Positions 3,382 through 60,575 are shown, numbered from the stretch's first letter. The stretch is DNA of 64,000 nt from a bacterium (GCA_041393395.1 JAWKKG010000002.1:124468-188467), one strand, 5' to 3'. The notes: a model not told the origin generated them from the sequence alone. Made by a program: numbers and translations.

Positions 3382-6300
3382 ATGTCGATTCGCGTGCTCG
3401 CGAATGACGGGGCTCGTGCGCGTGTGTTTGCGCCATTGCGCTTCCTGCTGGTGGTCCTGGCATTGCTTGTGCCGGTCGGCGCCTCCGCGTCCGTCCTGAC
3501 CGCCCGCCTGCAGTTCGACGAGGCCGACCTGCGACTGGTCGACCAGAACGGAGCGCTCCGGGTGGCGCTCGTCGGCGAGACCGAGGTCGGCGGCGGGGAG
3601 GATGCGCCGTTGCCGATGGCGGTTCGGAGCTTCTACGTGCCCGCCGGCTACGAAGTGCGCGACGTCCGGGTCACTCCGGTCGATCGCGTGGAGGTCGCGC
3701 GCGCGGCGCGTCTCGTGCGGGAAGTCGCGCTCGACCCGGCGTCCGGTCGTCGTCCGTTCCCCGCGCCGGCGGTGGCGGGCGAGGGAGACCTGCATCCGGC
3801 GCGCACCGCGGTGACGCTCGGCGGCGGCGATCTCGGCGGTCATCGCGTGGAGTCGGTCGCCGTGTTCCCGGTGACCTGGAATCGCGCCACCGGCGCGCTG
3901 AGTCTCGCGCGGACCGTCGATCTCGAGCTCGAGCTCGCTCCGGTCGCGGCGCACGCGGAAGACCTCGTGGCGCTCCGTCCCGCGCCCGAGCGAGATCGTC
4001 TGTTCCTGGAGGCCGTGCGCGGCATGGTCTCGAATCCGGCCGACGTTCCGTTCGAGACGGACGAGCCGGCTCTGTCCCTGCCGGGCGGCTTCGCGCCGAC
4101 GGACCTTCCGAGCGTCGAGGGAAGCGGCGTGCAGATGGTCATCGTCACGACGGACGCGCTCGCGGCGGAGTTCCAGGGGCTCGCGGACTGGAAGACCAAG
4201 AAGGGTGTTCCGACCGTCATCCGTACGGTCGAGTGGATCGACGCGAACTACCCGGCCGGCCATGACGGCGCCGAGCGCGTCCGCATGTTCCTGAAGGACG
4301 CCTGGTCGAAGTGGGGCATCGGGATCGCGCTGCTCGGCGGCGACCACGACGTGGTGCCGATCCGGTTCGCGTGGAGCCGCTTCTTCTTCGGCGGCACCGG
4401 CGTGCCGACCGACCAGTACTACGCCTGCCTTTCGGGCGACTGGAACGCCGACGGCGACCAGTACTACGGCGAAGGCACGTACCAGCTCGACCCCGGAGAT
4501 CAGGTCGATCTGTACCCGGACCTCGTCGTCGGACGCGCGAGCGTGGAGAACGCGACCGAGGCGGCGACGTTCCGGACGAAGTCCCTCACGTACGAGAAGA
4601 ACCCGCCCGCGGGATACGTGGAAAAGGTCTGCTACCTCGCGGAGGTGCTGTTCCCGGACACGTGGGAGTACGGCGATCCGCCGGGCAACATCACGCTCGA
4701 CGGCAAGACGCTGACGGACGCGTTCGATCTGCATCTGCCCGTCGGCTGGACGCGTACGAAGTGCTACCAGTCGGACAACAATCTGGACCGGGCGCACGCG
4801 CTCACCCAGCTCTCCACCGGTCACCACCACCTGATGACGCTGATGAACCACGGCGACGCGTTCAAGTTCTCGGTCGGCAACGGCCTGAACCCGCTCATCT
4901 TCGTGGCGGACACGAACACGCTGACGAACGGCGATTACCTGATGTTCGTGATGGCGACCGCGTGCAATCCGAACCAGCTCGATCTGGAATGCCAGGGCGA
5001 GTCGTTCATGAACAACCCGACCGGCGGCGCCGTGGCGGTCATGGGACCCACGCGGGAAGACTTCCCGCTCTCGGCGTCGGACTACCACGAGTCGATGCTC
5101 GACCTCGCGTTCCGGGTGGGGATCACGGGATTCGGCGCGATGAACCAGCTGCACCGCGTGCCGTTCATCCCGATCGCCCAGACCGAGTCCACGCCCGACC
5201 GGTGGACGATGATGACGAAGATGCTCCTCGGCGATCCGGAGATCCGCTTCTGGACCGAGGAGCCGAAGGCGATGCAGGTCACCCATGTGCCGAGCGTGGC
5301 GCTGGGAACCCCCTCGATCACGGTGCACGTCGCGCAAACCGGGACGCCGATTCCGAACACGCTCGTGTGTATCAGCGATGCGAACGGGACCTATGCGCGC
5401 GGTCGTACGAACGCGGCCGGCGACGTGACGCTCGCGATCACGAGTTCTGCTACCGGCACGGTTTCGGTGGCGGCCACCGCGAAGAACTACCGCCCGAAGG
5501 AGAGCACGTTCTCGCTCACGGCGGCGGCCGGCGCGCAGCTCGCGCTCACGGGCGCCGTGCTGGACGATGACGCGATCGCGCCCTCTTCGGGGAACGGCGA
5601 TGGCGTCGTCGACGCCGGGGAGACGATCGAGGCGAACCTGTCGGTCAAGAACGCCGGCACCGTCACGGCGAACAGCGTCACGGCGACGGCGTCGATCGCC
5701 GCGGGCAGCAGCGCCACGTTCAACCTGCAGTACGCGGGCGTGGCCGATCCGTCGCGGGTGTTCGTGGGACCGGATGCGGTGAACCCTGCCGCGATTCCGT
5801 TCACCCTGAACTTCGCCGCGCCGAGCATCGACTACATCGGTCGCCCGAACATGAGCTTCGCGGCCGACTCGCTGTCCGACGCCGGCGTGTACCTCTGGCA
5901 GGACGACGAGGGCTGGCATCTCCGCTGGAGCACGGCCGGCGATTCCTCCGCGGTCACCGGCACGGTGACGACGGACGGGAAGATCCGCGCGACGCACACG
6001 CCGTTGCTCGAGGCCACGCTGGACTCCAGCAGCCTCAACGGCCCGGCGACCGTGCTGACGTTCGCGGGCACGACCACGGAGTCCGATCTCGTGGACGGCG
6101 TGGACTTCGCGATGTCGGACGCGTCGATGCTGACCGTGACCGGCGGCGGCAGCGCGAATCTCGGCAACATCACGGCCGGCGCCACGGCGGCCGGAACGAT
6201 CACGTTCGCGGTGTCGCCGAACGCGCGCGACGGCCAGGTCGGTTACGTGGACCTGACCTTCACGTCGACGCTCGCGAGCTGGACGGACGCGATCCCGGTC

Positions 6301-8553
6301 GTGTTCGCGGGTCCCGAGCTCGAGGCGTACGTCTTCGCGATCGACGACTCGAACAGCCCGCCGCTCTCCGGCGACGGCGACGGCATCGTCGAGGTCGGCG
6401 AGACGGTGCGACTCACGCCCACCGTGCTGAACCGAGGAACGGGCGCCGCCATCTCGGTCGATGGCGCGGCCACGGCGGCCGCCGGCATCACGTTCGTGGA
6501 CGCGGCGGATGCCTACGGCGACGTGGATCCGCTCGCTCAGACCGCCGGCACCGACGGCTACGTGTTCACCGTCACCTCGGCGGCGGGAACGTCCATCGAT
6601 CTCACGCTCACCGATTCGCTCGGTCGGACCACGGTCAAGAACATCGAGTTCGTGGCGCCGGCCGCGCCGGTGAACGTCGCGTTCGAATCCGGCTCCACGG
6701 AGATCACGGTCTCGTGGGATCCGGTCGCGGACGCGGACCTCGCCGGGTACAACGTCTACCGGAGCCCGACCTCCGGGTCCGGTCACACCCGCGTGAACTA
6801 CGAGCTGCTGCGTACGGGCTCGCGCTACGTCGACGAGGGCCTCGCGCTCGGGTCGATCCAGTTCTACTACCTGACGGCGGTGGACTCGTCCGGCAACGAG
6901 AGTCCGGCGTCGGCGGAGATCGAGGCGTGGACCACCATCCCGCAGGTCGGTGGCTTCCCGAAGGATGCGAACAGCAACGTGTTCAGCGGCATGACCATGG
7001 CCGACGCGGACAACGACGGCGACGGCCTCGAGCTGTTCGTGGGCTCGCAGGACTTCCGCATGTACGCGTGGGAAGACGACGGCTCGGACGTGGCCACCGA
7101 CTGGCCGGTCGCGGCGAACGCCGCGGTCTGGGCCACGCCGGCGCTCGGGGACCTCGACGGCGACAACCTGCTCGAGGTGATGTGGGGCGCGATGGACTCG
7201 CGATTCTACGTCACGCACCACGACGGTACGCCCGCGATCGGTCCGAATCGCTGGATCTTCGACGTGCAGGGTTCGAACCAGACCATGCGCGGCGCGCCGG
7301 TCATCGCGAACGTGGATGCGGATCCGGAGTACGAGTTCCTCGTGGGCACGGACTTCGGCACGCTCTACGGCTTCGAGCACGATGGCACGCCGCTGCCGGG
7401 TGCCGACTCGCTCGGCGTGATCTACACCGCGCCGCAGACGAACGAGTTTCCGCCGCGGATCTGGGGGCCGCTTGCGGTCGGCGACCTGGACGACAACGGG
7501 ACGATGGAGATCGTGTTCACGTGCTGGAACGATCGTCTGTACGTCATCGGGGCCGACGGCACCGATCGCCCCGGTTTCCCGATCCAGCATCCCGAGGACT
7601 TCCGCAACGGTCCGTCGCTCGGCGACCTGGACAACGACGGAACGCTCGAGATCGTCGCGGGGAACATCGACAGCAAGCTGTACGTGTGGAACCACGACGG
7701 CACGTCGTATCTCACCGGCACCAACGGCGTGTTCGCCGACCTGCCGGGCGAGATCCGGAGCCAGCCGGCACTGTGCCAGCTCGACGCGGATCCGGAGCTG
7801 GAGATCGTGGTCACCTGCATGGACGGCGCGATCTACGCGTTCAATCACGACGGCTCGGGCTTCACCCAGATCGGCGGGCTGCTCGCCATGCTCGATTCGG
7901 GTGACGGCATCTCGGCGAGCCCGATCGTCGTGGACGTGGACGGCGACGGCGACATGGAGATCCTCGTCGGCCATCGCAACGGCAGCTTCTACGGCGTGCA
8001 CCACACCGGCGCGCGCGTGGCGGGGCTCCCGATCCCGACGTCGCTCCAGATCTTCTCGACGGCGGCGGCCGGCGACATCGACAACGACGGAGACGTCGAC
8101 GTCGCGTTCGCGTCCTACGACGAGAGCGTGAACGTGCTCGACTTCCCGGGCGCGTCCACACCGGAGGCGTACGAGTGGCCGACGACGGGCGGCAACGTCC
8201 GGCGCACGTCGCTGTACGGCGAGCTCGCGGACGGCGGCGCGACGGACGTCACCCCGCTGCCGGGCAGCGCCGCGGTGCAGTTCGCGCTCTCGCAGAACAC
8301 CCCGAACCCGTTCCCCGGCGGCACCTCGATCGAGTTCGCGGTGCCGAAGACGCAGCACGTCACCCTGCGGGTCTACAACGTCGAGGGGCGTCTCGTGCGC
8401 ACCCTCGTCGACGAGTCCGTGCAGGCGGGGCGTGGTCGCGTGAACTGGGACGGTCGCGACGCCCAGGGTCGGGCGCTGTCCTCGGGCGTGTACTTCTACC
8501 GCCTCGACAACGGGGAGACGTCGGTGACCCGCAAGAGCGTGCTCCTGCGGTAG
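3382..8553 (+). CDS. Very large secreted multidomain protein: gingipain-like C25 cysteine peptidase domain, FG-GAP/VCBS beta-propeller repeats, a fibronectin-III domain, and a FlgD-Ig/T9SS-type C-terminal sorting domain
   Basis: ATG at 3382 is preferred over GTG at 3373 because AAGAGG sits 9 nt upstream. Signal peptide is present. C25 motifs: GGDHDVVP, NHGDAFKF (His) and ATACNPNQ (Cys). FG-GAP-like repeats: GDLDGDNLLEV, GDLDDNGTMEIV, GDLDNDGTLEIV, VDVDGDGDMEILV, GDIDNDGDVDVAF. FN3: VSWDPVADADLAGYNVYRS...YYLTAVDSSGNES. C-terminus ...GVYFYRLDNGETSVTRKSVLLR is a typical T9SS type-A CTD ending. Confidence 0.8.
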   Translation: MSIRVLANDGARARVFAPLRFLLVVLALLVPVGASASVLTARLQFDEADLRLVDQNGALRVALVGETEVGGGEDAPLPMAVRSFYVPAGYEVRDVRVTPVDRVEVARAARLVREVALDPASGRRPFPAPAVAGEGDLHPARTAVTLGGGDLGGHRVESVAVFPVTWNRATGALSLARTVDLELELAPVAAHAEDLVALRPAPERDRLFLEAVRGMVSNPADVPFETDEPALSLPGGFAPTDLPSVEGSGVQMVIVTTDALAAEFQGLADWKTKKGVPTVIRTVEWIDANYPAGHDGAERVRMFLKDAWSKWGIGIALLGGDHDVVPIRFAWSRFFFGGTGVPTDQYYACLSGDWNADGDQYYGEGTYQLDPGDQVDLYPDLVVGRASVENATEAATFRTKSLTYEKNPPAGYVEKVCYLAEVLFPDTWEYGDPPGNITLDGKTLTDAFDLHLPVGWTRTKCYQSDNNLDRAHALTQLSTGHHHLMTLMNHGDAFKFSVGNGLNPLIFVADTNTLTNGDYLMFVMATACNPNQLDLECQGESFMNNPTGGAVAVMGPTREDFPLSASDYHESMLDLAFRVGITGFGAMNQLHRVPFIPIAQTESTPDRWTMMTKMLLGDPEIRFWTEEPKAMQVTHVPSVALGTPSITVHVAQTGTPIPNTLVCISDANGTYARGRTNAAGDVTLAITSSATGTVSVAATAKNYRPKESTFSLTAAAGAQLALTGAVLDDDAIAPSSGNGDGVVDAGETIEANLSVKNAGTVTANSVTATASIAAGSSATFNLQYAGVADPSRVFVGPDAVNPAAIPFTLNFAAPSIDYIGRPNMSFAADSLSDAGVYLWQDDEGWHLRWSTAGDSSAVTGTVTTDGKIRATHTPLLEATLDSSSLNGPATVLTFAGTTTESDLVDGVDFAMSDASMLTVTGGGSANLGNITAGATAAGTITFAVSPNARDGQVGYVDLTFTSTLASWTDAIPVVFAGPELEAYVFAIDDSNSPPLSGDGDGIVEVGETVRLTPTVLNRGTGAAISVDGAATAAAGITFVDAADAYGDVDPLAQTAGTDGYVFTVTSAAGTSIDLTLTDSLGRTTVKNIEFVAPAAPVNVAFESGSTEITVSWDPVADADLAGYNVYRSPTSGSGHTRVNYELLRTGSRYVDEGLALGSIQFYYLTAVDSSGNESPASAEIEAWTTIPQVGGFPKDANSNVFSGMTMADADNDGDGLELFVGSQDFRMYAWEDDGSDVATDWPVAANAAVWATPALGDLDGDNLLEVMWGAMDSRFYVTHHDGTPAIGPNRWIFDVQGSNQTMRGAPVIANVDADPEYEFLVGTDFGTLYGFEHDGTPLPGADSLGVIYTAPQTNEFPPRIWGPLAVGDLDDNGTMEIVFTCWNDRLYVIGADGTDRPGFPIQHPEDFRNGPSLGDLDNDGTLEIVAGNIDSKLYVWNHDGTSYLTGTNGVFADLPGEIRSQPALCQLDADPELEIVVTCMDGAIYAFNHDGSGFTQIGGLLAMLDSGDGISASPIVVDVDGDGDMEILVGHRNGSFYGVHHTGARVAGLPIPTSLQIFSTAAAGDIDNDGDVDVAFASYDESVNVLDFPGASTPEAYEWPTTGGNVRRTSLYGELADGGATDVTPLPGSAAVQFALSQNTPNPFPGGTSIEFAVPKTQHVTLRVYNVEGRLVRTLVDESVQAGRGRVNWDGRDAQGRALSSGVYFYRLDNGETSVTRKSVLLR

Positions 8554-8750: not shown

Positions 8751-10169
8751 ATGCGCAGATCCAAGATCGTGGCCACCCTGGGGCCGGCGTCCTCGGCGCC
8801 CGAGTCCGTGCTCGAGCTCATCCGCTCGGGAGTCGACGTCTTCCGGCTGAACTACAGCCACGGCCGGCGCGAGGACCATGCGACCGCCGTGCAGGTCATC
8901 CGGGAGGCGGCTCGGATCCACGGTCGCGAGATCGGCATCCTGCAGGATCTGTCGGGGCCGAAGATCCGCACGGGGGCGCTGGAGGGGGAAGACGAGATCC
9001 GCTTCGAAGTCGACGAGGAGGTGCGCCTCGTCCCCGGCGACGGACCGATCCGCCCGGGCGTCCTCACGTCGAACCTGCCGTCCCTGATCGACGACCTGCG
9101 CCCCGATCAGCGCGTGCTGCTGCGCGACGGACGGCTCGAGCTGCGGACGATCGAGCGACGCGGCGAGGAGTTCCTGCTGCGCGTCGTTCGTGGCGGATTA
9201 CTGAGCGGGCGCGCGGGCATCAATCTGCCCGAGACCCGCATCTCCGTTCCGTCGCTCACCGAGAAGGACCGACTCGATCTCGCGCACGGGCTCGAGGTCG
9301 GCGTGGACATCGTGGCCCTCTCGTTCGTGCGGACCGCCCATGACCTCGAGGAGGCGCGAGCCGCCGCGGCGCCGCGCGAGATCTTCCTGATCGCGAAGAT
9401 CGAGAAGCCCGAGGCGATCGACAATCTGGACGAGATCCTCGCCGTGGCCGACGGCGTGATGGTCGCGCGGGGCGATCTCGGCGTGGAGATGCCGGCCGAG
9501 AGCGTGCCGGTCCTGCAGAAGCGCATCATCCGCGCGGCGAACCGGGTGCGCAAGCCCGTCATCACCGCCACCCAGATGCTCGAGTCGATGATCGAGAGTG
9601 CCGTGCCCACTCGGGCCGAGGCATCGGACGTGGCGAACGCGATCTTCGACGGCACCGACGCCGTGATGCTCTCCGGCGAGACGGCCACCGGTCACTATCC
9701 GATCGAGGCCGTCCGCACGATGGCTCGTATCGCGGCGAGCTGCGACAACCCGGACGACTCGCAACAGCGCCGGTTCCGATCCTCCGGCTCGACCCTCACG
9801 CCGGCCGAGGCCGTCGCGCGCGCCGCGAGCCGCGCTGCGGAGGACGTGCGCGCGAAGGCGCTCATCGTGTACACGGAGTCCGGCGCCACCGCACGCCTCC
9901 TCTCCTCGCAACGCCCGGGCGTCCCCGTCCTCGCGCTCGGCCCCGACCCGACCACCGCCCGCCGCCTGCGCCTCTCGTGGGGCGTGTACCCGCGTGTCAT
10001 GCCGCGGGTCGAGCGACTCGTGGAGATGCTCGAGATCGGCGAGAAGATTCTCGTGGACGCGGACCAGGTCGCGAACGGTGACCGGGTCGTCGTGGTGTCC
10101 GGGAGTACTGCGGCGAACCGCGGGGGGACCAACATGTTGAAGATCCATACCGTCGGGGAGACCTGGTAG
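8751..10169 (+). CDS. pyk: Pyruvate kinase
   Basis: ATG at 8751 is in frame inside the longer 8175..10169 ORF; a GGAGGCGAGGGAG purine-rich RBS lies upstream. Product: MRRSKIVATLGPAS...FRLNYSHG...MVARGDLGVE... with a C-terminal regulatory domain, 472 aa. Confidence 0.95.
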   Translation: MRRSKIVATLGPASSAPESVLELIRSGVDVFRLNYSHGRREDHATAVQVIREAARIHGREIGILQDLSGPKIRTGALEGEDEIRFEVDEEVRLVPGDGPIRPGVLTSNLPSLIDDLRPDQRVLLRDGRLELRTIERRGEEFLLRVVRGGLLSGRAGINLPETRISVPSLTEKDRLDLAHGLEVGVDIVALSFVRTAHDLEEARAAAAPREIFLIAKIEKPEAIDNLDEILAVADGVMVARGDLGVEMPAESVPVLQKRIIRAANRVRKPVITATQMLESMIESAVPTRAEASDVANAIFDGTDAVMLSGETATGHYPIEAVRTMARIAASCDNPDDSQQRRFRSSGSTLTPAEAVARAASRAAEDVRAKALIVYTESGATARLLSSQRPGVPVLALGPDPTTARRLRLSWGVYPRVMPRVERLVEMLEIGEKILVDADQVANGDRVVVVSGSTAANRGGTNMLKIHTVGETW

Positions 10170-10314
10170 GTTTCTGCGCTGTGTCGGCCTCGAGTCGGAG
10201 CCCCGGGGGAGTCCTGTTCGCGGGGTTTCTGCGCTGTGTCGGGCTCGAGTCGGAGCCCCGGGGGAGTCCTGTTCGCGACCGGTTTCGCTCGGTCGTCCCT
10301 GACCTCGCTGTGTC

Positions 10315-10473
10315 GTTCTCGATTCGGAGCCCGGGGGAGCCCTGTTCGCGACCGGTTCGCTCGGCCGTCCATGGCCTCGCTCACCTCGACGCGGCGACGG
10401 CTCCACCGTCCGTGGTTCCGCATCGTCGCCGCGACGTCGCGAACAGGACTCCCCCGGGCTCCGAATCGAGAAC
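10315..10473. mobile_element. MITE-like element copy 1 (159 bp) with 38-bp terminal inverted repeats
   Basis: Left TIR GTTCTCGATTCGGAGCCCGGGGGAGCCCTGTTCGCGAC (10315..10352); right TIR is its reverse complement at 10436..10473. An 83-bp core sits between them. Confidence 0.55.
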
Positions 10474-10765
10474 GACCTGCTTCGGTGAGCCTGGGAGGTT
10501 ACTCATGCCTCTTGGGCGCACTCGCGTGGGCTTCGATCCGCTCCTCCAGGCGGTGGCGTTTCCCACCGCGGGTCCTGCCACTGACGGCGGCGAGCTCTCG
10601 CCCGCGCTATCGACCTTGCCGAGCATGGGCCGCGGAACAGTGTCAGAGTCTCGCGTGCCGGCTGTGGCCGCGTGCCGCACTCGGCGCCGCGGTTCGCAGA
10701 TGGCGCGGAGCCGACGTATCCGCGTCCACGGCGTCGAACGGATCTCCCGGGCATCAGCAAGCGTG

Positions 10766-10927
10766 TCGGTCTCGGTTCGGGCCTCGGGGAGTCCTGTTCG
10801 CGACGCCGCGGCGACTTGGCGGAACCATGGACGGTGGAGCCGTCGCCGCGACGAGGTGAGCGAGGTCAAGGACGACCGAGCGAACCGGTCGCGAACAGGA
10901 CTCCCCGAGGCCCGGACCGAGACCGAC
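10766..10927. mobile_element. MITE-like element copy 2 (162 bp), inverted relative to copy 1
   Basis: 40-bp TIRs at 10766..10805 and 10888..10927. The core is the near-exact reverse complement of the copy-1 core (CGGTTCGCTCGG...CCATGG...GGCTCCACCGTCC). Confidence 0.55.
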
Positions 10928-10936
10928 AAGGTGCAC

Positions 10937-11404
10937 CTACAAAGCGCGCCCCATCTTCCTCACGCGCTCGAAGTGCGCCTTCTCCACCGGCTGCACCGAA
11001 AGCCGCATGCCCTTCTTGAGGACCCACATGCCATCCAGTGCGGGCTCTTCCTTCATGGCGGCGAGCGACACGACGTCCTCGAACTTCTCCTCGAACGTCA
11101 CATCCACGAGGAACCAGCGCGGCGCGCTGCGTTCCGCCTTCGCGTCGAAGTACTTGGACTTGCGATCGAACTGCGTGGGATCCGGGTAGCCGCCCTTTGC
11201 CACCTTCGCGATGCCGGCGACGCCGGGCGGGTCCGCGTTCGAGTGGTGGAACAGGACGAGGTCGCCGGGCTGGATCTCGTCGCGCAGGAAGTTGCGGGCG
11301 CGGTAGTTGCGCACGCCGTCCCACGCGGTGGTGCCGTCGCGCTCGAGGTCGTGGATGGAGTACGTGCCGGGCTCGGACTTCATGAGCCAGTAGCGTCGGG
11401 CCAT
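10937..11404 (-). CDS. EVE (PUA-like) domain protein
   Basis: Internal ATG at 11404 is preceded by a perfect AGGAGG RBS. Product MARRYWLMKSEPGTYSI...FRARNFLRDEIQPGDLVLFHHS... is the EVE-domain signature, 155 aa. The longer upstream extension to 11503 is not supported. Confidence 0.8.
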   Translation of the reverse strand: MARRYWLMKSEPGTYSIHDLERDGTTAWDGVRNYRARNFLRDEIQPGDLVLFHHSNADPPGVAGIAKVAKGGYPDPTQFDRKSKYFDAKAERSAPRWFLVDVTFEEKFEDVVSLAAMKEEPALDGMWVLKKGMRLSVQPVEKAHFERVRKMGRAL

Positions 11405-27608: not shown

Positions 27609-27705
27609 AGCGCCGGGAGCGCAGGCCGCCGGCAGCGCGACGCGGCGTCTGGCGGCGCGCAGGCCGCCGGCAGCGCGACGCGACATCTGGCGGCGCGCAG
27701 GCAAC
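27609..27705. repeat. 41-bp tandem direct repeat, about 2.3 copies, between convergent genes
   Basis: CGCAGGCCGCCGGCAGCGCGACGCG(G/A)C(G/A)TCTGGCGGCG appears twice, then a partial CGCAGGCAACAGG. Confidence 0.6.
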
Positions 27706-53882: not shown

Positions 53883-56800
53883 CGCAGGTTCTTGCAAGTC
53901 CTGGCACGAATCGTGCCCCCCCCCATTTCTGGAAACAGGTAGCGCGCTCGGAATCGCGGCACTCGCTCTGATACCCTGGTCCACAGCCCGGGCGGACGTT
54001 ACCGACGCCCGGCTCTGGGAGCCCGCCGTGCAGATGACGTTTGCCGAGTTCGACGTGCAGGTGCTGGCCAAGCAGCTCGCCCGCCGATCGGGTGGGGGGT
54101 TCCATCAGATCGTGGAAGCGTGGTCCGACAGCCTCGGTCGCAACAACGGCTTCGGCTGGTACCTCGAGGTCGGACCGTCCCTCGATTGGGCTTCGGCCTG
54201 GCAGGATCGCGAGCTGTTCACTTTCGTTCCCGACACGACTGTCGGAAACAAGGTCCCGTACGGGCATTCCGACTTTCGCATGCTCGTCAGCAACGACGAC
54301 GACGTACACGCGTTCTACGAGGCGAAGTTCTATCCGCCCGATTCGATCCGAGCAATGGTCGCTTACAAACGTCGGGGTGGGGTGTCGTGGGACTCCGCGT
54401 CCGACCCGGTGTTTCTCGCTCCCGGCTGCGTGAGTGACTCGCCGCGCCCCTACTACGATAGCGAAACAGACATCATGCACCTGATGTTCACGGCGGCGGC
54501 TACCACGGGATGCTACCCCGCTCCTCCGTCCGGCACGGACCTGCAGGTCTATACGAGAAAGGCAGTGTCCGCCGCAGACTCCGCTTGGGCGCCGCTGACG
54601 TACATGTACCCGAGCATTGGCCTCGGTCCGATCGGGGGCGGTGTGTTCGCGGAAGCCGACACGGTGCACTTCTTCGGGAGTCGAACAGAGAACCAAAGCG
54701 GGTGGAAAGTCGTCACGGTGATCCACCGGAGCGGACTCCGCCCGCCCCCGGCGAGTACTGGACGTTCGCCCACGTCGATACGCTCGACTCTTTTCTGGTG
54801 CCTGGTGATGGCGATCCCCGATCGGAGCCCGAGGACCAGCCCACACCCTTCGAAGGGGCCAGCGGCGACTCCCTCTACGTGGCCTGGGCTCGACCGATGG
54901 GTACGACCGGCGCCGACGAGGTGATGTTCGCCGTCTACGATCTTCGGGACACTTTATGGACCCCGGACAACTGCCCCACGGGTAACTGCGGTTCGCTTCC
55001 CCCGTTCGGTCTCCAGCTCACGACGACGGATGATTCCGCGGAGGACTCGTGGGATCCAAAGGTGGTCGTAGACGCGGCCGGCGCCGTTCACGTCTTCTAT
55101 CGCGTCGGCGATCCCTCGACCCTGCAGCACTTGTTCAACTCTGGCGACCCGACCAACCTCGCGGACTGGAGCGAGCCGACGATCCTGTCGTTCGAGGAGG
55201 AGCACACGGCGAGACTGCCGACGGTGGTCGCCGACGCTGACACCCTGTGGGTCGCGTACTCCGCTCAGTCTCTGACCGGATGCACGGCGAATTGCCGGCA
55301 GGGCTTCTTCAAGCTCGGCACCCGTCACGTGAACTGGGGCGGCACGGTCAACGTCCGCTCGGACTTCGTCGTGGCGTCGGCCGGCACGCTCTCGATCGCG
55401 CCGGGCACCACGGTGATCGCGGGCGCGGCTCCCGTCGGAAACCTGGGCAATCGCGCGGACGACGTCGAGATCGTGGTGGGCGGAACCCTGCTCGCGGAAG
55501 GAACGTCGACCGAGGCGGTGACCTTCACCGGAGATGTCGCGACCCCGGGATCCTGGGGAGGCATCTTGTTCCGCGACACCGCCGACGACTCGCCGAGTTC
55601 GATCTCGTACGCCGACTTCGAGTATCCGGAGTTCGCGGTGCAGGTCGACTCGCTGGCCGGGACGCTGTTTCGGCCCACGTTTGCGGGAGTCGCCCAGGCC
55701 GACGTCTACGTTGATCGGAGTACACGGTTGCCGCTGGGATCGGCCTGGTGGTTCGAATCCCCCGTGAGCATCCGCGTTGCTTCTGAGGACGCCGCCCAGC
55801 CGGGTGGTGACATCTCCATCACCATCGACGGCGACCTGTACGCGCAGCCCGCGGGTGGCCGGGTGCAGGTTCTGTCCGCGTCCCCGACCGCAAGCGGGGA
55901 GGACTGGGAGGGGATGGTCGTCCGGTCTGCGGGCACGATCATCGCCTCGAACCTCGAGATCGGGCACTGCCGCAATCCCCTGACTCTGCTTGCCGCGGAC
56001 CACGCGCAGCTCTTCGACAGTGAACTTCACACCTTCGCGGGAGACGGTGTGTTCGACTGGGGCTCAGATGCGCGCATCGAGCGATGCCTCATTTGGAACG
56101 GCGGGCTCGATGTGCAGGCGAGCGCTGGATCCGCGATTCGCAGCATCAGCTCGGCGACTTGGGCTCTTGCCGACACCATCGACGGTCGGTTTTCGCACGG
56201 AATCTGGAGCTCGTATTCATACGGATTCTGCACCGCGGCCCCGATTCCGCTCGGGAAGACCATCCAGATCGACGGGAATGTGATCCGAGGCCCCGGCGTC
56301 GAACACCCTTCGGAGACGGGACGCGGACTGTACGTCGAGTGGATCTGTCACGGAATCGACGCGCTGGTGTCGGACAACTGTGTCTCGCAGTGGCCGCAGC
56401 AGGGCATCTCGCTCTCCAATGCGGCCAACACCCAGGTCGCGTGCAACTGGGTGGACAGTACGGAAGTCGGACTGAAACATTTCCGGGGCGATCATGTTCC
56501 CTCGGGTGACGCGGACGTCCAGTTCCGACGGAACGTTGTCAGTGCCTGGGAGACTCGCGGCATCAACGTGACCTCTCCGGAGGGGTTCGAAATGGCGGAT
56601 CTCTCCACAGCGGCGCGGAACGAGGTGCGCCAGGATGGCCAGGACGACACCTTCGTTCGGTTTCGCCCCACGAGCAGCACGCAAGGTGCCGAGTTCGATG
56701 TGAGCAACCAGCTCTGGGTTGACCCCACCGGCGCCGTTCTCACGGATCCTGCGGACGTGCTCACCGACTGCGACTTCAACCTGCTGTCGCCCATCGTGAT

Positions 56801-57206
56801 CACCTCGCTGCTGACGTCCCAGGAGCGCTGCGCGAGCATAGCGACGTGCCCAGGAAGCTCGCAGGCGGTGGCCCGGCGAGGCGCAGACCGCGCACCGGAA
56901 CCAGGAGCAGAACGTGGCGACCCGCCACGCCGTTTCGAGAGCTTCGTGGAAACGGTGGCCGGGCGAGCGCGAGTCGTGCTGGCCGGTCCGGCGGACACGG
57001 AGCCGCCCGTGCAGGGGCGTGTCTACGACGTCGCCGGGCGTCTCGTTCAGGAGGTCCATGGCACCTTGGTGTCTCCCGGTCGGTACGTGCTCGAATGGAA
57101 CGGCTCGACTGGGGCAGGCCATCAAGCGGCAGACGGTGTGTACTTCTTGCGCGTCGAAGCCCCGGGCCATCATCGAACGCACAAGATCGTCCGGATCCGG
57201 AGGTAG
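53880..57206 (+). CDS. Large secreted protein: BNR/sialidase-like N-terminal region, right-handed beta-helix region, and a FlgD-Ig/T9SS-type C-terminal domain. As sequenced, the reading frame is broken twice at homopolymeric C tracts (C9 at 53916..53924 and C5 at 54745..54749), so it may be a pseudogene, a sequencing artefact or phase-variable.
   Basis: Frame 0 gives ATG 53880 MRRFLQVLARIVPPP..., which stops at 53942. Frame 1 (53925..54749) continues a signal-peptide-like ...FLETGSALGIAALALIPWSTARA|DVTD... and plausible protein up to ...WKVVTVIHRSG. Frame 0 again (54750..57206) runs GEYWTFAHVD... to the C-terminus ...GRVYDVAGRLVQEVHGTLVSPGRYVLEWNGS...GVYFLRVEA.... Removing one C at the first tract and adding one at the second restores a single ORF of about 1105 aa. 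Confidence 0.55.
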
Positions 57207-57208
57207 CC

Positions 57209-58513
57209 ATGCGACGACTTTCGATTTCGGGCGGAGTGATCGCCCTTCTCTCGACAGGGTTCGCTTCGATCGACGTGGCTTCCGCGACGACTCTACGGGT
57301 CCCCGAGGACTTCCCGACCATTCAAGCGGCCGTGGACGCGGCGGGTCCGATCGACGTCGTGGACGTCGCCCCGGGCACGTGGTCGGACGCGGAGACGCGT
57401 TCCGTCTGGAACGGCGGGATGTACGTCAACGTCCGGTCGGTCGTGTTCTTGAAACCGGGAATCACCGTGCGCTCTCGGAGTGGCGCCGAAGCCACGGTCA
57501 TCGACCTGTCGCTGAACCCCGGTCCGGGGTTCCAGACCCCCGTGGTCTATCCGGGACAACAGGCGGGGCCCGCGACGATCCAGGGCTTCACGGTGCTCGG
57601 AGCCGGCTCGGGCGGAGGCGGCATCAGTTCCCTCGCGGCGCAGAAGCTCATCGTCCGCGACTGCATCGTGCGGGACATCCACACCGGGGGACGTGCGATC
57701 ACGACGGCCAACGGCGGTGGGCTGGAGATCTACGACACCCTCGTGGAGAACGTCACCTTGCTCGGCGGCACCGCGGTCCGCGCCATCAGCGGCGGAAGTC
57801 TGAAGATGATCCGGACTACGATTCGCGACAACTCGGCGGGTGGGGTCTACTCCACGGTTCCGACGATCCTCGAGGATTGCAACTTCGTCCGGAATCGGAC
57901 GACGCAAGTGGGAGCAGGAGCCAACCTCCAGGGGCCGTCCGAAGTCACGCGGTGTCTGTTTCAGGAGAATGTCTCGCTGGAGGATCCAGGCGGGGGATTG
58001 GTCGTCTCGTCGTCACCCGCTGTAGTCGAGGGATGCACTTTCGCTCGCGATTCCTGCGGCGCCACGGGAGCGGCGGCGGGGATGTGGGTGGCTTATGCGC
58101 CGGGACTCTCGGTGATTCGCAACAACACATTCGTCGGGTGCCATTCTCCGGTCTTCCCTGCATCTGCGTTCGGCGTGTCCAGTAGCGTCGTCGAGTTCTC
58201 GAACAACATCGTCGCTGGCAGCACCGGATCGGCCGCACTGCACAACGTTGGTGGCACGATCACGGGGGGCTGCAACGACTACTGGAACAACGAGGAAGGG
58301 GACTTCGAGGCCTGGACCCCGCTCCCCACCGACTTGTCCGCCGATCCACTCTTTTGCGATCCCGAAGCTCACGATTTCCGACTGCACAGCAACTCTCCTT
58401 GCGCGCCGGATCAGAACCCGACCTGCGGTCAGGTCGGAGCTTGGTCCGTCGCGTGCGGTTCCGTGTCCATCGAGCCCCTGTCCTGGGGGCGAATCAAGGG
58501 GGCGTACCGATGA
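57209..58513 (+). CDS. Secreted right-handed beta-helix protein, paralog A, with the ...SWGRIKGAYR C-terminal tag
   Basis: GGAGG RBS 3 nt after the upstream stop. Signal peptide MRRLSISGGVIALLSTGFASIDVASA. N-terminal LRVPEDFPTIQAAVDAA is a pectin-lyase-fold hallmark. C-terminal module GCNDYWNNEEGDF...DPLFCDPEAHDFRLHSNSPC...CGSVSIEPLSWGRIKGAYR. 434 aa. Confidence 0.8.
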   Translation: MRRLSISGGVIALLSTGFASIDVASATTLRVPEDFPTIQAAVDAAGPIDVVDVAPGTWSDAETRSVWNGGMYVNVRSVVFLKPGITVRSRSGAEATVIDLSLNPGPGFQTPVVYPGQQAGPATIQGFTVLGAGSGGGGISSLAAQKLIVRDCIVRDIHTGGRAITTANGGGLEIYDTLVENVTLLGGTAVRAISGGSLKMIRTTIRDNSAGGVYSTVPTILEDCNFVRNRTTQVGAGANLQGPSEVTRCLFQENVSLEDPGGGLVVSSSPAVVEGCTFARDSCGATGAAAGMWVAYAPGLSVIRNNTFVGCHSPVFPASAFGVSSSVVEFSNNIVAGSTGSAALHNVGGTITGGCNDYWNNEEGDFEAWTPLPTDLSADPLFCDPEAHDFRLHSNSPCAPDQNPTCGQVGAWSVACGSVSIEPLSWGRIKGAYR

Positions 58514-59124
58514 AACCGCGTGCGATCTCGCTCGTCCTCGCAGTGCTCGCCGCTGCCACCTCCGTCCACGCCGAGACTCAGGTCTTCCCGTGCACGGAGC
58601 AGGCGGTGATCACCAGCGGCGCGGGTCTGGGGCGTCTTCTCTTCCGATTCGATGGCACGACGGTCCTGCGCGATGAACTCGTCACGGCGGCGTGGCTCGA
58701 TGTCTCCTGTTCGAACGCATCTGGCGACGCCCTCACCGTGCGGATGGCTCCGCTGGATCGGGCCTGGTCGGTCGGATCCGTGACCTGGACGTCTCCGTGG
58801 CACGACGCCGGCGGCGATCTCGCTCGAGCGTTCGTAACGACCGAGGACGTCGCGTCCAGTTCGGTCCGCCTGAACGTGACGGAGTGGGTGCGCAGTCACC
58901 TCGCCGGAGAGGTCGCGGACTACGGCCTCATGCTCACGGTCGACGACGGGGCGCGAGGGGGTCTTACCTCCAACGAACGAGCGATATTCGGCGATCCGCC
59001 GGTCGCCACGCTGACGATCGAGTTCCGTAGCTTGACGGCTCAAGGGATCGAAGGCGGGCCCCGCGCCTACTTGGCGCGTCGTGAGGCGCGCGTCGCGGCC
59101 GATCGGGCGGACCGGTTGAGGTAG
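58510..59124 (+). CDS. Small secreted partner protein A (unknown family), translationally coupled to beta-helix A
   Basis: ATG overlaps the upstream stop (ATGA). Signal peptide MKPRAISLVLAVLAAATSVHA. Paralogous to 60562..61191 through shared blocks S(V/A)TW(T/S)SPW, ...E(V/G)(A/L)(D/G)YGL(M/I)..., ...L(T/A)(I/L)(E/R)(F/V)RSLTA(Q/R)G. 204 aa. Confidence 0.7.
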   Translation: MKPRAISLVLAVLAAATSVHAETQVFPCTEQAVITSGAGLGRLLFRFDGTTVLRDELVTAAWLDVSCSNASGDALTVRMAPLDRAWSVGSVTWTSPWHDAGGDLARAFVTTEDVASSSVRLNVTEWVRSHLAGEVADYGLMLTVDDGARGGLTSNERAIFGDPPVATLTIEFRSLTAQGIEGGPRAYLARREARVAADRADRLR

Positions 59125-59188
59125 CGGACTCGGCGAGGCTGTCCGTCGCCCGGCGATGACCGCCTGGGCTTCGCTGAAGTTCTCGTCG

Positions 59189-59240
59189 GCGACCGGATCC
59201 GCCGGTCGCACCTGCCCTCCCTCCCGGGAGACGCAAGATG
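59189..59240 (+). promoter_or_regulatory. Conserved 5' leader, copy B (palindrome, C-rich tract, SD, ATG)
   Basis: GCGACCGGATCCGCCGGTCGCACCTGCCCTCCCTCCCGGGAGACGCAAGATGCG differs from copy A at only 2 positions. Confidence 0.55.
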
Positions 59241-60575
59241 CGAGGCCCTCGATCGATTGCACGCCGGAGACTTGTGTGCGGCGCGGCGACTGGTGGTGAT
59301 CCGATGAGATTGCGAATCACTCTCGCCGCGGGGATCGTCTTCGGTGTCGGCCTTGCTGCGGCCGACGCGAGCATCCTCCGGGTTCCTGAGGACTACTCGT
59401 CTGTCCTCGCGGCGGTCGACGCCGCGGTTTCGGGCGACAGCGTGCTCGTTCAGCCGGGCACTTGGACCGACACGGCGATCCGGATCGCTCCCACCGGAGC
59501 GTACGTCAAGTCCACGCTGTTCGTGAAGCCGGGCATCACCGTGCTGGGGCTCGGTGGACCGGAGGTCACGACGCTCGATGTTGGTCCGGAAGTTGGTGCG
59601 TTCGCCGTGACGATTACAAACAATGCTCCTGGCTCGGCGCCGTCGTACGTGATTGGCTTCACCATCACGGGTGGCGGGACAGGTGTTGGCGGATACGGCG
59701 GATCTCCCCTGGAGCTCCACGATTGCCGGATCGTCGACAATCCGCGGCAGGCGGCCAACATCGCCTACACCCGCTTGACCTTGGTCGGAGGAACAATCAC
59801 GGGAAATGCAGAGGGTCAGTCGAGCCCGCAGTGGGGATGTGTGTTCGGCCACGAAAGCGCCTTGGAACTGCGACAAGTCACGATCGAACGAAACTCAAAC
59901 GTCTTCGGTGTCGTTTTCGATAGCCAACCACAGTCTGTTCGCTTGATCGACTGCACGTTTCTCGACCAGACGCTCGCCTGCCGCGTCTGGGACTGCCCGG
60001 ACTTCGTGGTCGAGAACTGCTCGTTCGTCCGGTGTTCGGACGGTGGCATTCAAGTGCGAAACTGCCAGGGTCGGATCGAGTTCACGACGTTCGCTTATGA
60101 CACGTCCGGGGCGGGTGGGGGAGCCCAGCTGAGTCGCTCGACGATCGAAGTCAGCAACAACACGTTCTATCGCTGCCACACCGACGGATCCGCCGCCGCA
60201 CTGTCCGTTTCGTTCACGGACGGCGGCGTCCACAACAACATCTTCACGGGCTGCACGACACCCCGCGGCACGGTCTCCTTCGGCGGCGGCACCCAGCACC
60301 CCTCCACCGGCTGCAACCTCTTCTGGGACAACGAGGGCGACGACTTCTGGAACGACTGGGTCCCCGCCCCCACCGACATCGAGGCGGACCCCGAGTTCTG
60401 CAACGAAACCGTCCTCGACCTGACGCTGCACTCCACGTCCCCCGCCGCCTCCGCGAACTCCGCCTGCGGTCTCCTCGGCGCGTTCGATGTCGGCTGCGGC
60501 TCCGTCTCCGTCGACGCCACGAGCTGGGGTCGCCTCAAGAACCTCTACCGGAGCTCGGATCATGAAGACCGCTAG
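59238..60575 (+). CDS. Secreted right-handed beta-helix protein, paralog B, with the ...SWGRLKNLYR C-terminal tag
   Basis: The conserved-leader ATG at 59238 is in frame; an alternative start ATG at 59303 gives a clean signal peptide MRLRITLAAGIVFGVGLAAADA. LRVPEDYSSVLAAVDAA; beta-helix repeats; C-terminal module GCNLFWDNEGDDF...DPEFCNETVLDLTLHSTSP...CGSVSVDATSWGRLKNLYRSSDHEDR. Confidence 0.8.
   Translation: MRGPRSIARRRLVCGAATGGDPMRLRITLAAGIVFGVGLAAADASILRVPEDYSSVLAAVDAAVSGDSVLVQPGTWTDTAIRIAPTGAYVKSTLFVKPGITVLGLGGPEVTTLDVGPEVGAFAVTITNNAPGSAPSYVIGFTITGGGTGVGGYGGSPLELHDCRIVDNPRQAANIAYTRLTLVGGTITGNAEGQSSPQWGCVFGHESALELRQVTIERNSNVFGVVFDSQPQSVRLIDCTFLDQTLACRVWDCPDFVVENCSFVRCSDGGIQVRNCQGRIEFTTFAYDTSGAGGGAQLSRSTIEVSNNTFYRCHTDGSAAALSVSFTDGGVHNNIFTGCTTPRGTVSFGGGTQHPSTGCNLFWDNEGDDFWNDWVPAPTDIEADPEFCNETVLDLTLHSTSPAASANSACGLLGAFDVGCGSVSVDATSWGRLKNLYRSSDHEDR

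What the first reader, a model, noticed from the sequence alone, without database searches (positions are those of the whole stretch)
10170..10930. Nested cluster of MITE-like inverted-repeat elements filling the 760-bp pyk/EVE intergenic region
Two elements of about 160 bp lie at 10315..10473 and 10766..10927 in opposite orientation, each with 38 to 40-bp terminal inverted repeats of core GGAGCCCGGGGGAGTCCTGTTCGCGAC and near-identical 83-bp cores. Two extra direct TIR copies sit at about 10185 and 10240. Six-frame translation shows the mirrored peptide SPGGVLFA on both strands. Such elements can form large cruciform or stem-loop RNAs and may act as REP/BIME-like regulatory or recombinogenic sites.
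Basis: seen in the sequence. Interest (0 to 1): 0.6.

Follow-up and report, generated by a model that had tools for sequence, protein, structure and literature searches.

The report
Inverted pair of TwoAYGGAY-like hairpins
Two mirror-image copies of a 165-base Y-shaped hairpin fill the gap between two converging genes; they resemble a known bacterial RNA motif of unknown function (TwoAYGGAY) and recur at a second site in the same species, so this is a small family of structured repeats, not a classic miniature transposon.

Summary
Element A (10312-10476) and element B (10764-10928) are each 165 bp, with 41-bp arms that are 98% complementary and an 83-bp core. They lie in opposite orientation around a 287-bp non-coding spacer. 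Two truncated arm copies sit at 10169-10309.

The repeat is not unique to this locus. A MAG of the same species carries the whole module again upstream of comEA-pilB. Relatives carry modules of the same design but different sequence.

It is not a demonstrable MITE. I found no target-site duplication and no transposase. The arms co-vary rather than being conserved (5 compensated pairs, 0 one-sided among the 37 pairs scored), while the core is almost invariant.

On one strand only, each element matches Rfam TwoAYGGAY at 39-42 bits, just under the cut-off of 43. It forms a long stem and a three-way junction, and both hairpin loops read CC-AYGGAC-GG, as in genuine Agathobacter copies.

Best reading: a GC-rich, long-stemmed, twin variant of the TwoAYGGAY class, probably a protein-binding RNA. 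The partial arms are by-products of DNA-hairpin instability. Function and mode of spread remain inferred.

The parts
8751..10169 (+). Pyruvate kinase gene (context). Its TAG stop directly abuts the first partial arm copy.
   Evidence: Pfam PK and PK_C. Start at MRRSKIVATLGP.
10169..10222 (+). Partial copy 1: about 17 nt of outer flank (GGTTTCTGCGCTGTGTC) plus 37 nt of the left arm, truncated at GTTCGCG.
   Evidence: the repeat finder D3. TRF 55-bp period, 98% identity.
10224..10309 (+). Partial copy 2: outer flank, full left arm and about 30 nt of core. It joins the next unit at the microhomology CGCT.
   Evidence: the repeat finder D3 and D5, TRF 73-bp period, sequence reading.
10312..10476 (-). 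Element A, 165 nt. Arms 10312-10352 and 10436-10476, core 10353-10435. The strand that carries the AYGGAC loops is the minus strand.
   Evidence: Inverted repeat I2, 41 nt, 98%. Fold -139.7 kcal/mol, z -13.4. Rfam TwoAYGGAY 39.1 bits on the minus strand only. Own covariance model 129.9 bits (this copy was in the model's seed alignment, so the score is by construction).
10477..10763 (.). Spacer, 287 bp, non-coding. Its two ends (10477-10503 and 10737-10763) are themselves inverted repeats and well conserved. The middle is poorly conserved (65-78%).
   Evidence: Flat third-position GC. An ATG-led ORF in the window has no ATG in L005. Block identities. No support from consensus folding; covariation term +5.35.
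10764..10928 (+). Element B, 165 nt, an inverted copy of A (88%). Arms 10764-10804 and 10888-10928, core 10805-10887. The AYGGAC strand is the plus strand.
   Evidence: Inverted repeats I3 and I1. Rfam TwoAYGGAY 40.9 bits on the plus strand. Own covariance model 132.7 bits (this copy was in the model's seed alignment, so the score is by construction).
10929..10939 (.). Outer flank of B (AGGTGCACCTA). It overlaps the TAG stop of the EVE gene (10937-10939, minus strand).
   Evidence: Sequence reading. The same flank occurs in L005 and L004.
10937..11404 (-). EVE-domain protein gene (context).
   Evidence: Pfam EVE, 7.7e-53. The exact protein was found on 6 public contigs.

Best explanation
The intergenic region holds a twin module: two TwoAYGGAY-class structured elements in opposite orientation, with their sense (GGA-loop) strands pointing away from a shared 287-bp spacer. 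Each 165-nt unit folds into a stem of 41-47 bp. The stem is capped by a three-way junction whose two hairpins present C-AYGGAC-G loops. One hairpin also carries GGA/GGA internal loops and the other carries two GA/GA internal loops. What is shown: the anatomy; the co-variation of the arms; the near-invariance of the core; the strand-specific near-threshold match to RF01731; and the recurrence of the whole module at a second locus and in relatives. What is inferred: the active form is RNA made from the GGA strand, and it works by binding a protein that recognises GGA loops. Sequestration of CsrA is the published hypothesis for this family. The very long stems would additionally act as a two-way barrier to transcription and RNA decay between the converging pyk and EVE genes. 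The two truncated arm copies would be DNA-level by-products, made by slippage or deletion at microhomologies when replication meets the hairpin. How the module reached two loci is unknown.
For: Rfam TwoAYGGAY hits occur on one strand only: A minus 39.1 bits, B plus 40.9, L005 copy 42.0. The generic long-hairpin model MIR918 hits both strands. Both loops read CC-ACGGAC-GG or CC-AUGGAC-GG, the same as in genuine copies from Agathobacter rectalis that score 149-159 bits. The junction residues AG and CGG align to the model. Two tandem GA loops in one hairpin match the published description of the family (PMC4333381). Over five full copies, 31 of the 37 scored long-stem pairs are invariant, 5 change on both sides, 0 change on one side only and 1 departs only through an unpaired cell. 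One further compensated pair lies in a core hairpin, and 97% of cells are paired against 35-44% when partners are slid. This count excludes the four long-stem columns that the consensus fold left unpaired. My own reading of the L005 arms finds three mismatches there, all transitions that give G-U on the GGA strand, so the arms are not perfectly complementary in every copy. The core is 88-96% conserved and the arms 85-100%, against 65-78% for most of the spacer. The GGA strand folds better than its complement in all 8 elements tested, 7 of them distinct, by 3.4-17 kcal/mol. G-U pairs number 16 on the GGA strand against 7 on the other. That asymmetry is expected for RNA, not for a DNA cruciform. 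The same divergent twin layout recurs upstream of comEA-pilB in the same species (L001/L075), in a relative with unrelated arm sequence of 95-109 bp and CC-NGGAC-GG loops (L072), and between a sigma-54 regulator and mazE in another relative (L074).
Against: All three scores are below Rfam's gathering cut-off of 43. The conserved internal-loop sequences of the family (AAACACAG and CGUCAAG...AAA) are absent. There are no expression data, and no sigma-70-like promoter or intrinsic terminator was found. No csrA gene lies in the window or the fetched loci, and the rest of the genome could not be examined. In this locus the sense strands run antisense into the 3' ends of pyk and EVE, which does not fit a simple 5'-UTR role. 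Arms of 41-109 bp with almost no wobble pairs are far longer than an RNA function needs. Together with the truncated arm copies and an inverted copy of the manC 3' end in L072, they point to DNA-level palindrome dynamics. The covariation rests on only five sequences, some of them orthologous.
Confidence: 0.5

Rival explanations
1. A non-autonomous mobile DNA element (MITE- or REPIN-like). The 620-bp module, or each 165-bp palindrome, would be selfish DNA moved by an enzyme encoded elsewhere. On this view the hairpin shape is what that enzyme recognises on single-stranded DNA.
For: The whole module, spacer included, is present at two unrelated loci of one species at about 83% identity. It is present in some relatives and absent in others. 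L073 keeps only a 19-nt remnant at the manC/comEA site. pyk is followed directly by an HDOD gene in L071 (Pfam on its DNA) and, by the gene table only, on the JGI contig that carries P0002. The spacer is a mosaic, 95% identical to L005 in one part and 65% in another, which suggests exchange between copies. The element abuts stop codons on both sides. Short-read contigs break at it. Genuine TwoAYGGAY is itself multi-copy, with 4 places in one 252-kb Agathobacter replicon.
Against: No target-site duplication can be shown, because the terminal TA lies inside the palindrome GTAGGT...ACCTAC. No transposase, Y1/HUH enzyme, integrase or reverse transcriptase turned up among the window proteins scanned. 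Only one locus lies in 64 kb. There was no hit in plasmids, phages, viral contigs or JGI metagenomes, nor among 5.8 billion predicted proteins searched with the six-frame translation. The arms vary between copies with compensation while the core is invariant. The G-U asymmetry favours one strand.
Confidence: 0.25
2. A purely DNA-level structure: cruciform-prone palindromes acting as a protein-binding, recombination or replication-pausing site, with no functional transcript.
For: The element folds strongly as DNA (-78.8 kcal/mol, z -12.6). Among the long-stem pairs scored, changes between copies are Watson-Crick to Watson-Crick. Truncated arm copies lie at microhomologies. In L072 the palindrome extends to include an inverted copy of the manC 3' end. 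The locus coincides with a synteny break.
Against: The Rfam match is strand-specific and the stability is strand-biased. The loop sequences are conserved, and they matter only on one strand. The same loops occur in an AT-rich Clostridial RNA family that does not have perfect long arms.
Confidence: 0.12
3. An invertible DNA switch: the 136-nt inverted repeats would flip the 287-bp spacer.
For: Long inverted repeats flank a short segment.
Against: The spacer has the same orientation relative to EVE in the window and in the independent assembly L005 (L006 covers only its first part). No recombinase gene is nearby. No promoter-like site lies in the spacer.
Confidence: 0.03
4. A one-off local duplication, a chance palindrome, or a small protein gene (the 'mirrored peptide').
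For: All copies in the window lie within 760 bp.
Against: A second locus exists in the same species, and analogous modules exist in relatives. There are 6 copies of the 19-mer against 0.05 expected. Third-position GC is flat and the ORF start is not conserved.
Confidence: 0.02

Closest known systems
TwoAYGGAY RNA motif (Rfam RF01731, clan CL00106; Weinberg et al. 2010, PMC2864571)
   Same: A long closing stem, a three-way junction and two hairpins whose loops read C-AYGGAC-G. Tandem GA internal loops in one hairpin. Junction residues AG and CGG. About 165-170 nt. More than one copy per replicon. The match is strand-specific at 39-42 bits.
   Different: The score is just below the gathering cut-off of 43. 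GC content is 70% against about 49% for the Agathobacter copy. The family's conserved internal-loop sequences are missing. The closing stem is much longer and almost perfectly paired (41 bp here, up to 109 bp in relatives). The elements occur as divergent inverted pairs with truncated arm copies. The host is a Gemmatimonadota-like lineage, whereas the known hosts are Clostridiales, gamma-proteobacteria and human-gut metagenomes.
CsrB/RsmY/RsmZ-type CsrA-sequestering sRNAs. TwoAYGGAY was linked to these by Gardner and Eldai (PMC4333381). That clan CL00106 groups them is my recollection, not something I checked.
   Same: Several GGA motifs are displayed in hairpin and internal loops: about 4 per element here and 6 per element in L072.
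   Different: No csrA gene was seen and no expression data exist. Csr/Rsm RNAs have no 40-100-bp perfect stems and are not palindromic DNA repeats.
REP/REPIN elements mobilised by RAYT transposases
   Same: Extragenic palindromic repeats that form hairpins, whose arms keep complementarity through compensated changes. They sit at gene ends. (From my knowledge of Bertels and Rainey 2011; not re-read here.)
   Different: REPINs are short, occur in tens to hundreds of copies, and flank a RAYT gene. Here only two loci are known, the units are 165-300 nt with a conserved non-palindromic core, and no RAYT gene was seen.
Bacterial MITEs such as Correia, ERIC/IRU and RUP
   Same: Size class of 100-200 bp, terminal inverted repeats, intergenic location, ability to fold in transcripts.
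   Different: No target-site duplication and no parent insertion sequence. The arms are variable and the core conserved, where MITEs show the reverse.
T-shaped inverted terminal repeats of adeno-associated virus and Y-shaped Streptomyces telomere foldbacks (structural analogy only, from my own knowledge)
   Same: A long stem capped by two small hairpins, present as an inverted pair.
   Different: Those are the ends of linear replicons. Here the elements are internal to a chromosome, flank only 287 bp, and no Rep or terminal protein is nearby.

Membership tests
TwoAYGGAY RNA (RF01731) | Two hairpins whose terminal loops read AYGGAY | tested here: met
   Hairpin X loop is ACGGAC (A, L001a) or AUGGAC (B, L005a). 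Hairpin Y loop is AUGGAC (A, L005a) or AAGGAC (B, L001a). Both are closed by CC/GG as in the Agathobacter copies, except hairpin Y of element B, which is closed by UC/GA (GGUC-AAGGAC-GACC). AAGGAC departs from the motif at one position.
TwoAYGGAY RNA (RF01731) | Both hairpins enclosed by a long outer stem, forming a three-way junction | tested here: met
   Minimum-free-energy folds of all copies. Full-length alignment to model positions 1-168.
TwoAYGGAY RNA (RF01731) | Score at or above Rfam's gathering cut-off (43 bits) | tested here: not met
   39.1, 40.9 and 42.0 bits. Genuine copies score 148.6 and 159.2 bits. The diverged relatives L072 and L074 give no hit.
TwoAYGGAY RNA (RF01731) | Conserved internal-loop and junction sequences between the outer stem and the hairpins (AAACACAG; CGUCAAG...AAA) | tested here: not met
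   These model positions are deleted in all three alignments. Only the junction AG and CGG are kept.
TwoAYGGAY RNA (RF01731) | Two tandem GA motifs in one stem (as described in PMC4333381) | tested here: met
   Hairpin Y reads GGU-GA-GC-GA-GGCC...GGCC-GA-GC-GA-ACC and is invariant in 5 copies. Literature statement.
MITE | Target-site duplication flanking the element | tested here: inconclusive
   No direct repeat at the ends of the module. A possible TA lies inside the terminal palindrome GTAGGT...ACCTAC. The comEA-side end of the second locus has no TA.
MITE | Terminal inverted repeats shared with an autonomous insertion sequence or transposase | tested here: not met
   No transposase among the window proteins scanned. 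No arm match elsewhere in the window, nor in plasmids, phages or viral contigs. The rest of the genome could not be searched.
MITE | Many dispersed copies with conserved termini | tested here: not met
   Only two loci are known in the species. The arms differ between copies through compensated changes while the core is conserved.
REP/REPIN | Short (about 20-40 nt) palindromes in tens to hundreds of copies, associated with a RAYT gene | tested here: not met
   Units are 165-304 nt. One locus lies in 64 kb. No Y1 transposase was found among the window proteins scanned. The genome-wide count cannot be tested here.
Csr/Rsm sponge RNA | Several GGA motifs in unpaired positions, plus a CsrA protein in the same genome | tested here: inconclusive
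   The GGA loops are present. tblastn with E. coli and B. subtilis CsrA finds nothing in the window or the fetched loci. The remainder of the genome was not available.

The most novel reading that the evidence does not exclude
The divergent twin module is a self-contained unit that duplicates within genomes. On this reading TwoAYGGAY-class elements are not ordinary sRNA genes but structured elements that persist and spread across phyla (Clostridia, gamma-proteobacteria, and here a Gemmatimonadota-like lineage). Their function would reside in the GGAC-presenting three-way junction, and their closing stems would grow at the DNA level by palindrome extension, from 41 bp here to 109 bp in a relative that has even captured an inverted copy of a neighbouring gene's 3' end. 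A more speculative sub-reading is that the GGAC loops are read by a PUA/EVE-type protein such as the one encoded next door.
Probability: 0.2. Interest if true: 0.65.

Novelty: new variant of a known kind. Interest (0 to 1): 0.45.

Why it matters
TwoAYGGAY has been an orphan motif since 2010, known mainly from gut Clostridia, and CsrA sequestration is still an untested guess for its role. A GC-rich version in a distant phylum keeps only the three-way junction and the C-AYGGAC-G loops. That pinpoints the part of the motif under selection. It also supplies a natural 'minimal' variant for binding studies. The twin inverted layout, the very long co-varying arms and the truncated arm copies show that these elements also behave as unstable DNA palindromes. 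They break short-read assemblies and mark a synteny breakpoint, which matters for MAG quality and annotation. One contig of this locus is filed under the wrong phylum.

Tried and rejected
1. The genome-contig scan with the arm 19-mer gave 3 loci, and only L001 was real.
2. The metagenome scan with the invariant core 19-mer gave 60 loci, all chance matches of 23-42 nt. The viral-contig scan gave nothing.
3. blastn of the whole region against plasmids and phages gave no match.
4. I concatenated the six-frame translation of the region and searched it against 5.8 billion proteins, hoping to catch spurious ORFs called in other copies. There was no hit.
5. An exact look-up of the window's pyk protein found nothing on record. 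The look-up of P0121, which sits on a 1.16-Mb contig, also failed.
6. Consensus folding of the spacer from three sequences gave no covariation support. The ATG-led ORF in the spacer was rejected because L005 has no ATG there and third-position GC is flat.
7. The promoter and terminator scan found nothing. GC skew shows no switch, so this is not an origin or terminus.
8. My own covariance model, built from five near-identical cores, found no further copy in the window. It also failed to recover the L072 elements or the genuine Agathobacter copies, because it is too narrow. It did reveal a second, degenerate element in L074.
9. The MIR918 and VA RNA hits were rejected as generic long-hairpin matches. 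MIR918 scores about equally on both strands, and VA RNA is weak on both (27.6 and 12.5 bits).
10. The bioRxiv preprint 10.64898/2026.09.22.753630 mentions twoAYGGAY 52 times but could not be opened. Term probes showed only 'twoAYGGAY RNA' 8 times, 'elements' 4, 'loci' 5 and 'integrase' 0, and that the paper holds at most one of CsrA, transposase, recombinase and endonuclease. Its conclusions are unknown to me and could change the novelty rating.

Full report
**What is in the sequence**

The 767-bp gap between pyruvate kinase (8751-10169, plus strand) and an EVE-domain gene (10937-11404, minus strand) holds two full elements. Element A is 10312-10476 and element B is 10764-10928.

- Each element is 165 bp, with 41-nt arms that are 98% complementary around an 83-nt core.
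- B is the reverse complement of A (136 nt, 88%).
- Left of A lie two truncated copies, 10169-10222 and 10224-10309 (TRF periods of 55 and 73 bp).
- The arm core 19-mer occurs six times, all here, against 0.05 expected by chance.
- No other long palindrome exists in the 64-kb window.
- Third-position GC is flat across the region, and the only ATG-led ORF in the spacer has no ATG in a related contig. The 'mirrored peptide' is therefore just the palindrome read in both directions.

**Is the repeat unique to this locus?**

It is not.

- An exact look-up of the EVE protein found six public contigs. One is L004 from GCA_020431545.1, a MAG labelled Gemmatimonadetes and 97% identical to the window over 5.4 kb. 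Three of them (L004, L007, L008) end within about 95 bp of the EVE stop, in the first arm copies; the others stop inside the module or just before it.
- The arm 19-mer found one real relative in the species-representative genomes. This is L001, where the whole module, spacer included and about 83% identical, lies next to a helix-hairpin-helix (comEA-like) gene and pilB. It is not next to pyk or EVE.
- L001 is labelled Phycisphaerales. It is nevertheless 99.5% identical over 1960 bp to L075, a contig of the same Gemmatimonadetes MAG as L004, and L075 begins inside the element.

One species therefore carries the module at two or more unrelated loci. Beyond this clade the family is rare. There was no true hit in JGI metagenomes, viral contigs, plasmids or phages, nor among predicted proteins.

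**Relatives**

At the manC/comEA-pilB site the picture varies among relatives.

- L072 (PilB 88% identical) has two elements of 276 and 304 nt in inverted orientation. Their arms are 95-109 bp long and unrelated in sequence to the window's arms. They show the same three-way junction, GGA/GGA internal loops and CC-NGGAC-GG loops.
- L073 (94%) has lost the module and keeps a 19-nt remnant.
- L074 (85%) has a plain long hairpin at that site. It also carries another divergent pair of such elements between a sigma-54 regulator and mazE.
- In L071 (pyk 78% identical) and, by its gene table, on the JGI contig carrying P0002 (75%), pyk is followed directly by an HDOD gene. The window's module therefore sits at a synteny break.

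**Pattern of conservation**

I aligned five full copies and counted base pairs.

- Of the 37 long-stem pairs scored, 31 are invariant, 5 change on both sides with pairing kept, none changes on one side only, and 1 departs only through an unpaired cell.
- One more compensated pair lies in a core hairpin.
- 97% of cells are paired, against 35-44% when the partners are slid by 1-3 columns.
- The consensus fold leaves four long-stem columns unpaired, so mismatches there are not counted. My reading of the L005 arms finds three, all transitions that give G-U on the GGA strand.
- Cores are 88-96% identical and arms 85-100% among the window, L005 and L001.
- Most of the spacer is only 65-78% identical, and it is a mosaic: window against L005 is 95% in one part and 65% in another.

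This is the reverse of what transposase-bound TIRs show. Selection, or some homogenising process, acts on pairing and on the core.

**Identity of the element**

Rfam's TwoAYGGAY model matches full length and on one strand only. A scores 39.1 bits on the minus strand, B 40.9 on the plus strand, and the L005 copy 42.0. The gathering cut-off is 43. Generic hairpin models hit both strands.

On the matching strand both core hairpins end in CC-AYGGAC-GG. One hairpin has GGA/GGA internal loops. The other has two GA/GA internal loops, which fits the 'two tandem GAs' described for the family.

I located genuine members in an Agathobacter rectalis replicon. They score 148.6 and 159.2 bits, and the replicon holds 4 places. 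Their loops, CC-AUGGAC-GG and CC-ACGGAC-GG, are identical to ours. The conserved internal-loop sequences of the family are missing from ours.

I therefore class this as a TwoAYGGAY-like variant, not as a proven member.

**Which strand, and RNA or DNA?**

In all 8 elements tested (7 of them distinct) the GGA strand folds better than its complement, by 3.4-17 kcal/mol. It carries 16 G-U pairs against 7 on the other strand. This favours an RNA made from that strand.

In every twin module the GGA strands point away from the spacer. This holds for the window, L005, L001, L072 and L074.

No promoter or terminator consensus was found. The arms are also much longer and more perfect than an RNA function needs.

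Each truncated arm copy ends at a short homology with the start of the next unit. The homology is CGCT in the window and GGGAGT in L001. I read the truncated copies as slippage or deletion products made at a DNA hairpin. This step is an inference.

L072 carries an inverted copy of the last 35 nt of manC on the far side of its first element. That again points to palindrome dynamics at the DNA level.

**Mechanism**

My best-supported account has three parts.

1. The elements are TwoAYGGAY-class structured RNAs that display GGA loops and bind a protein. CsrA sequestration is the only published hypothesis (PMC4333381).
2. Here they are arranged as a divergent twin that also forms a two-way structural barrier between converging genes.
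3. Their DNA behaves as an unstable palindrome.

The anatomy, covariation, recurrence and Rfam resemblance are shown. Transcription, the binding partner and the way the module reached two loci are inferred. The main rival is a selfish palindromic DNA element moved in trans. The two readings are not mutually exclusive.

**Novelty and caveat**

The motif class is known (Weinberg 2010, PMC2864571). The host phylum, the GC-rich minimal core, the very long co-varying arms and the twin inverted layout are not described in what I could read.

A preprint of September 2026 treats twoAYGGAY at length but could not be opened. It may already assign a function.

Rating: new variant of a known kind, moderate interest.

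Noticed in passing
L072:8581-8615 and L072:8941-8975: The last 35 nt of the manC coding sequence recur as an inverted copy (94% complementary) on the far side of the first hairpin element. The palindrome has in effect captured flanking gene sequence.
   Followed up: partly
L074:17047-17151 (-) and L074:17357-17495 (+): A further divergent pair of three-way-junction elements with GGA loops lies between a sigma-54 response regulator and a mazE-fic toxin-antitoxin pair in a relative (GCA_046330135.1). One partner has a degenerate outer stem (fold z-score only -2.6).
   Followed up: partly
L074:9012-9158: At the manC/comEA site this relative has a plain 147-nt hairpin with no three-way junction (63-nt arms, 79% complementary). 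Its arm shares GAGTCGGAGC with the window's partial arms.
   Followed up: no
L073:5352-5375: A relative that lacks the module keeps GTAGGTG-TCTCGGTCCGGG immediately after the manC stop. This looks like a remnant of the outer flank and the start of the arm, which suggests loss of the module from this lineage, not an ancestrally empty site.
   Followed up: partly
L001 (JAGQOG010000135.1) against L075 (JAGQIB010000195.1): A 2.4-kb contig binned into a 'Phycisphaerales' MAG, which serves as the GTDB species representative, is 99.5% identical to a contig of a 'Gemmatimonadetes' MAG from the same study. This is likely mis-binning of a repeat-truncated contig.
   Followed up: partly
window 10167-10175 and 10931-10939: Both converging genes end in TAG embedded in the element's terminal GTAGGT (TGGTAGGTT and TTGTAGGTG). 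manC at the other locus also ends in TAG in three relatives. From my own knowledge, TAG is usually not the commonest stop codon in high-GC genomes; I did not check its frequency here.
   Followed up: no
window 10169 / 10937, compared with L071:1717-1776: In L071, and by its gene table on the JGI contig carrying P0002, pyk is followed within 58-130 bp by a co-oriented HDOD gene. In the window pyk is followed by the module and a converging EVE gene, so the module marks a rearrangement breakpoint.
   Followed up: partly
window 10477-10763 compared with L005 and L001 (alignment A2): The spacer is a mosaic. Window against L005 is 95% identical next to element B but only 65% next to element A, although their EVE proteins are identical. 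This suggests recombination between copies.
   Followed up: partly
L077 (Agathobacter rectalis NZ_CP143948.1): 656-824 and 5997-6166: Genuine TwoAYGGAY copies lie upstream of, and co-oriented with, a methyl-accepting chemotaxis gene and a GGDEF gene. The 252-kb replicon holds four places in all. One copy sits beside a TauE gene, and a TauE gene also lies 4 kb from the window's module. That is probably coincidence.
   Followed up: no
window 3394-8553: A giant 1719-aa protein with Peptidase_C25, FG-GAP and FlgD_ig domains and a Por_Secre_tail (type IX secretion sorting) domain. This fits an FCB-group or Gemmatimonadota-like organism.
   Followed up: no
window 54000-60000: GC is lower here (0.65-0.66 against about 0.70). 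My simple third-position-GC gene caller found no genes between 52449 and 60166. The ORFs there carry beta-helix and FlgD_ig domains. The region may be horizontally acquired.
   Followed up: no
window 27619-27702: A 38-bp tandem repeat, 2.2 copies, 95% identical. Not examined.
   Followed up: no
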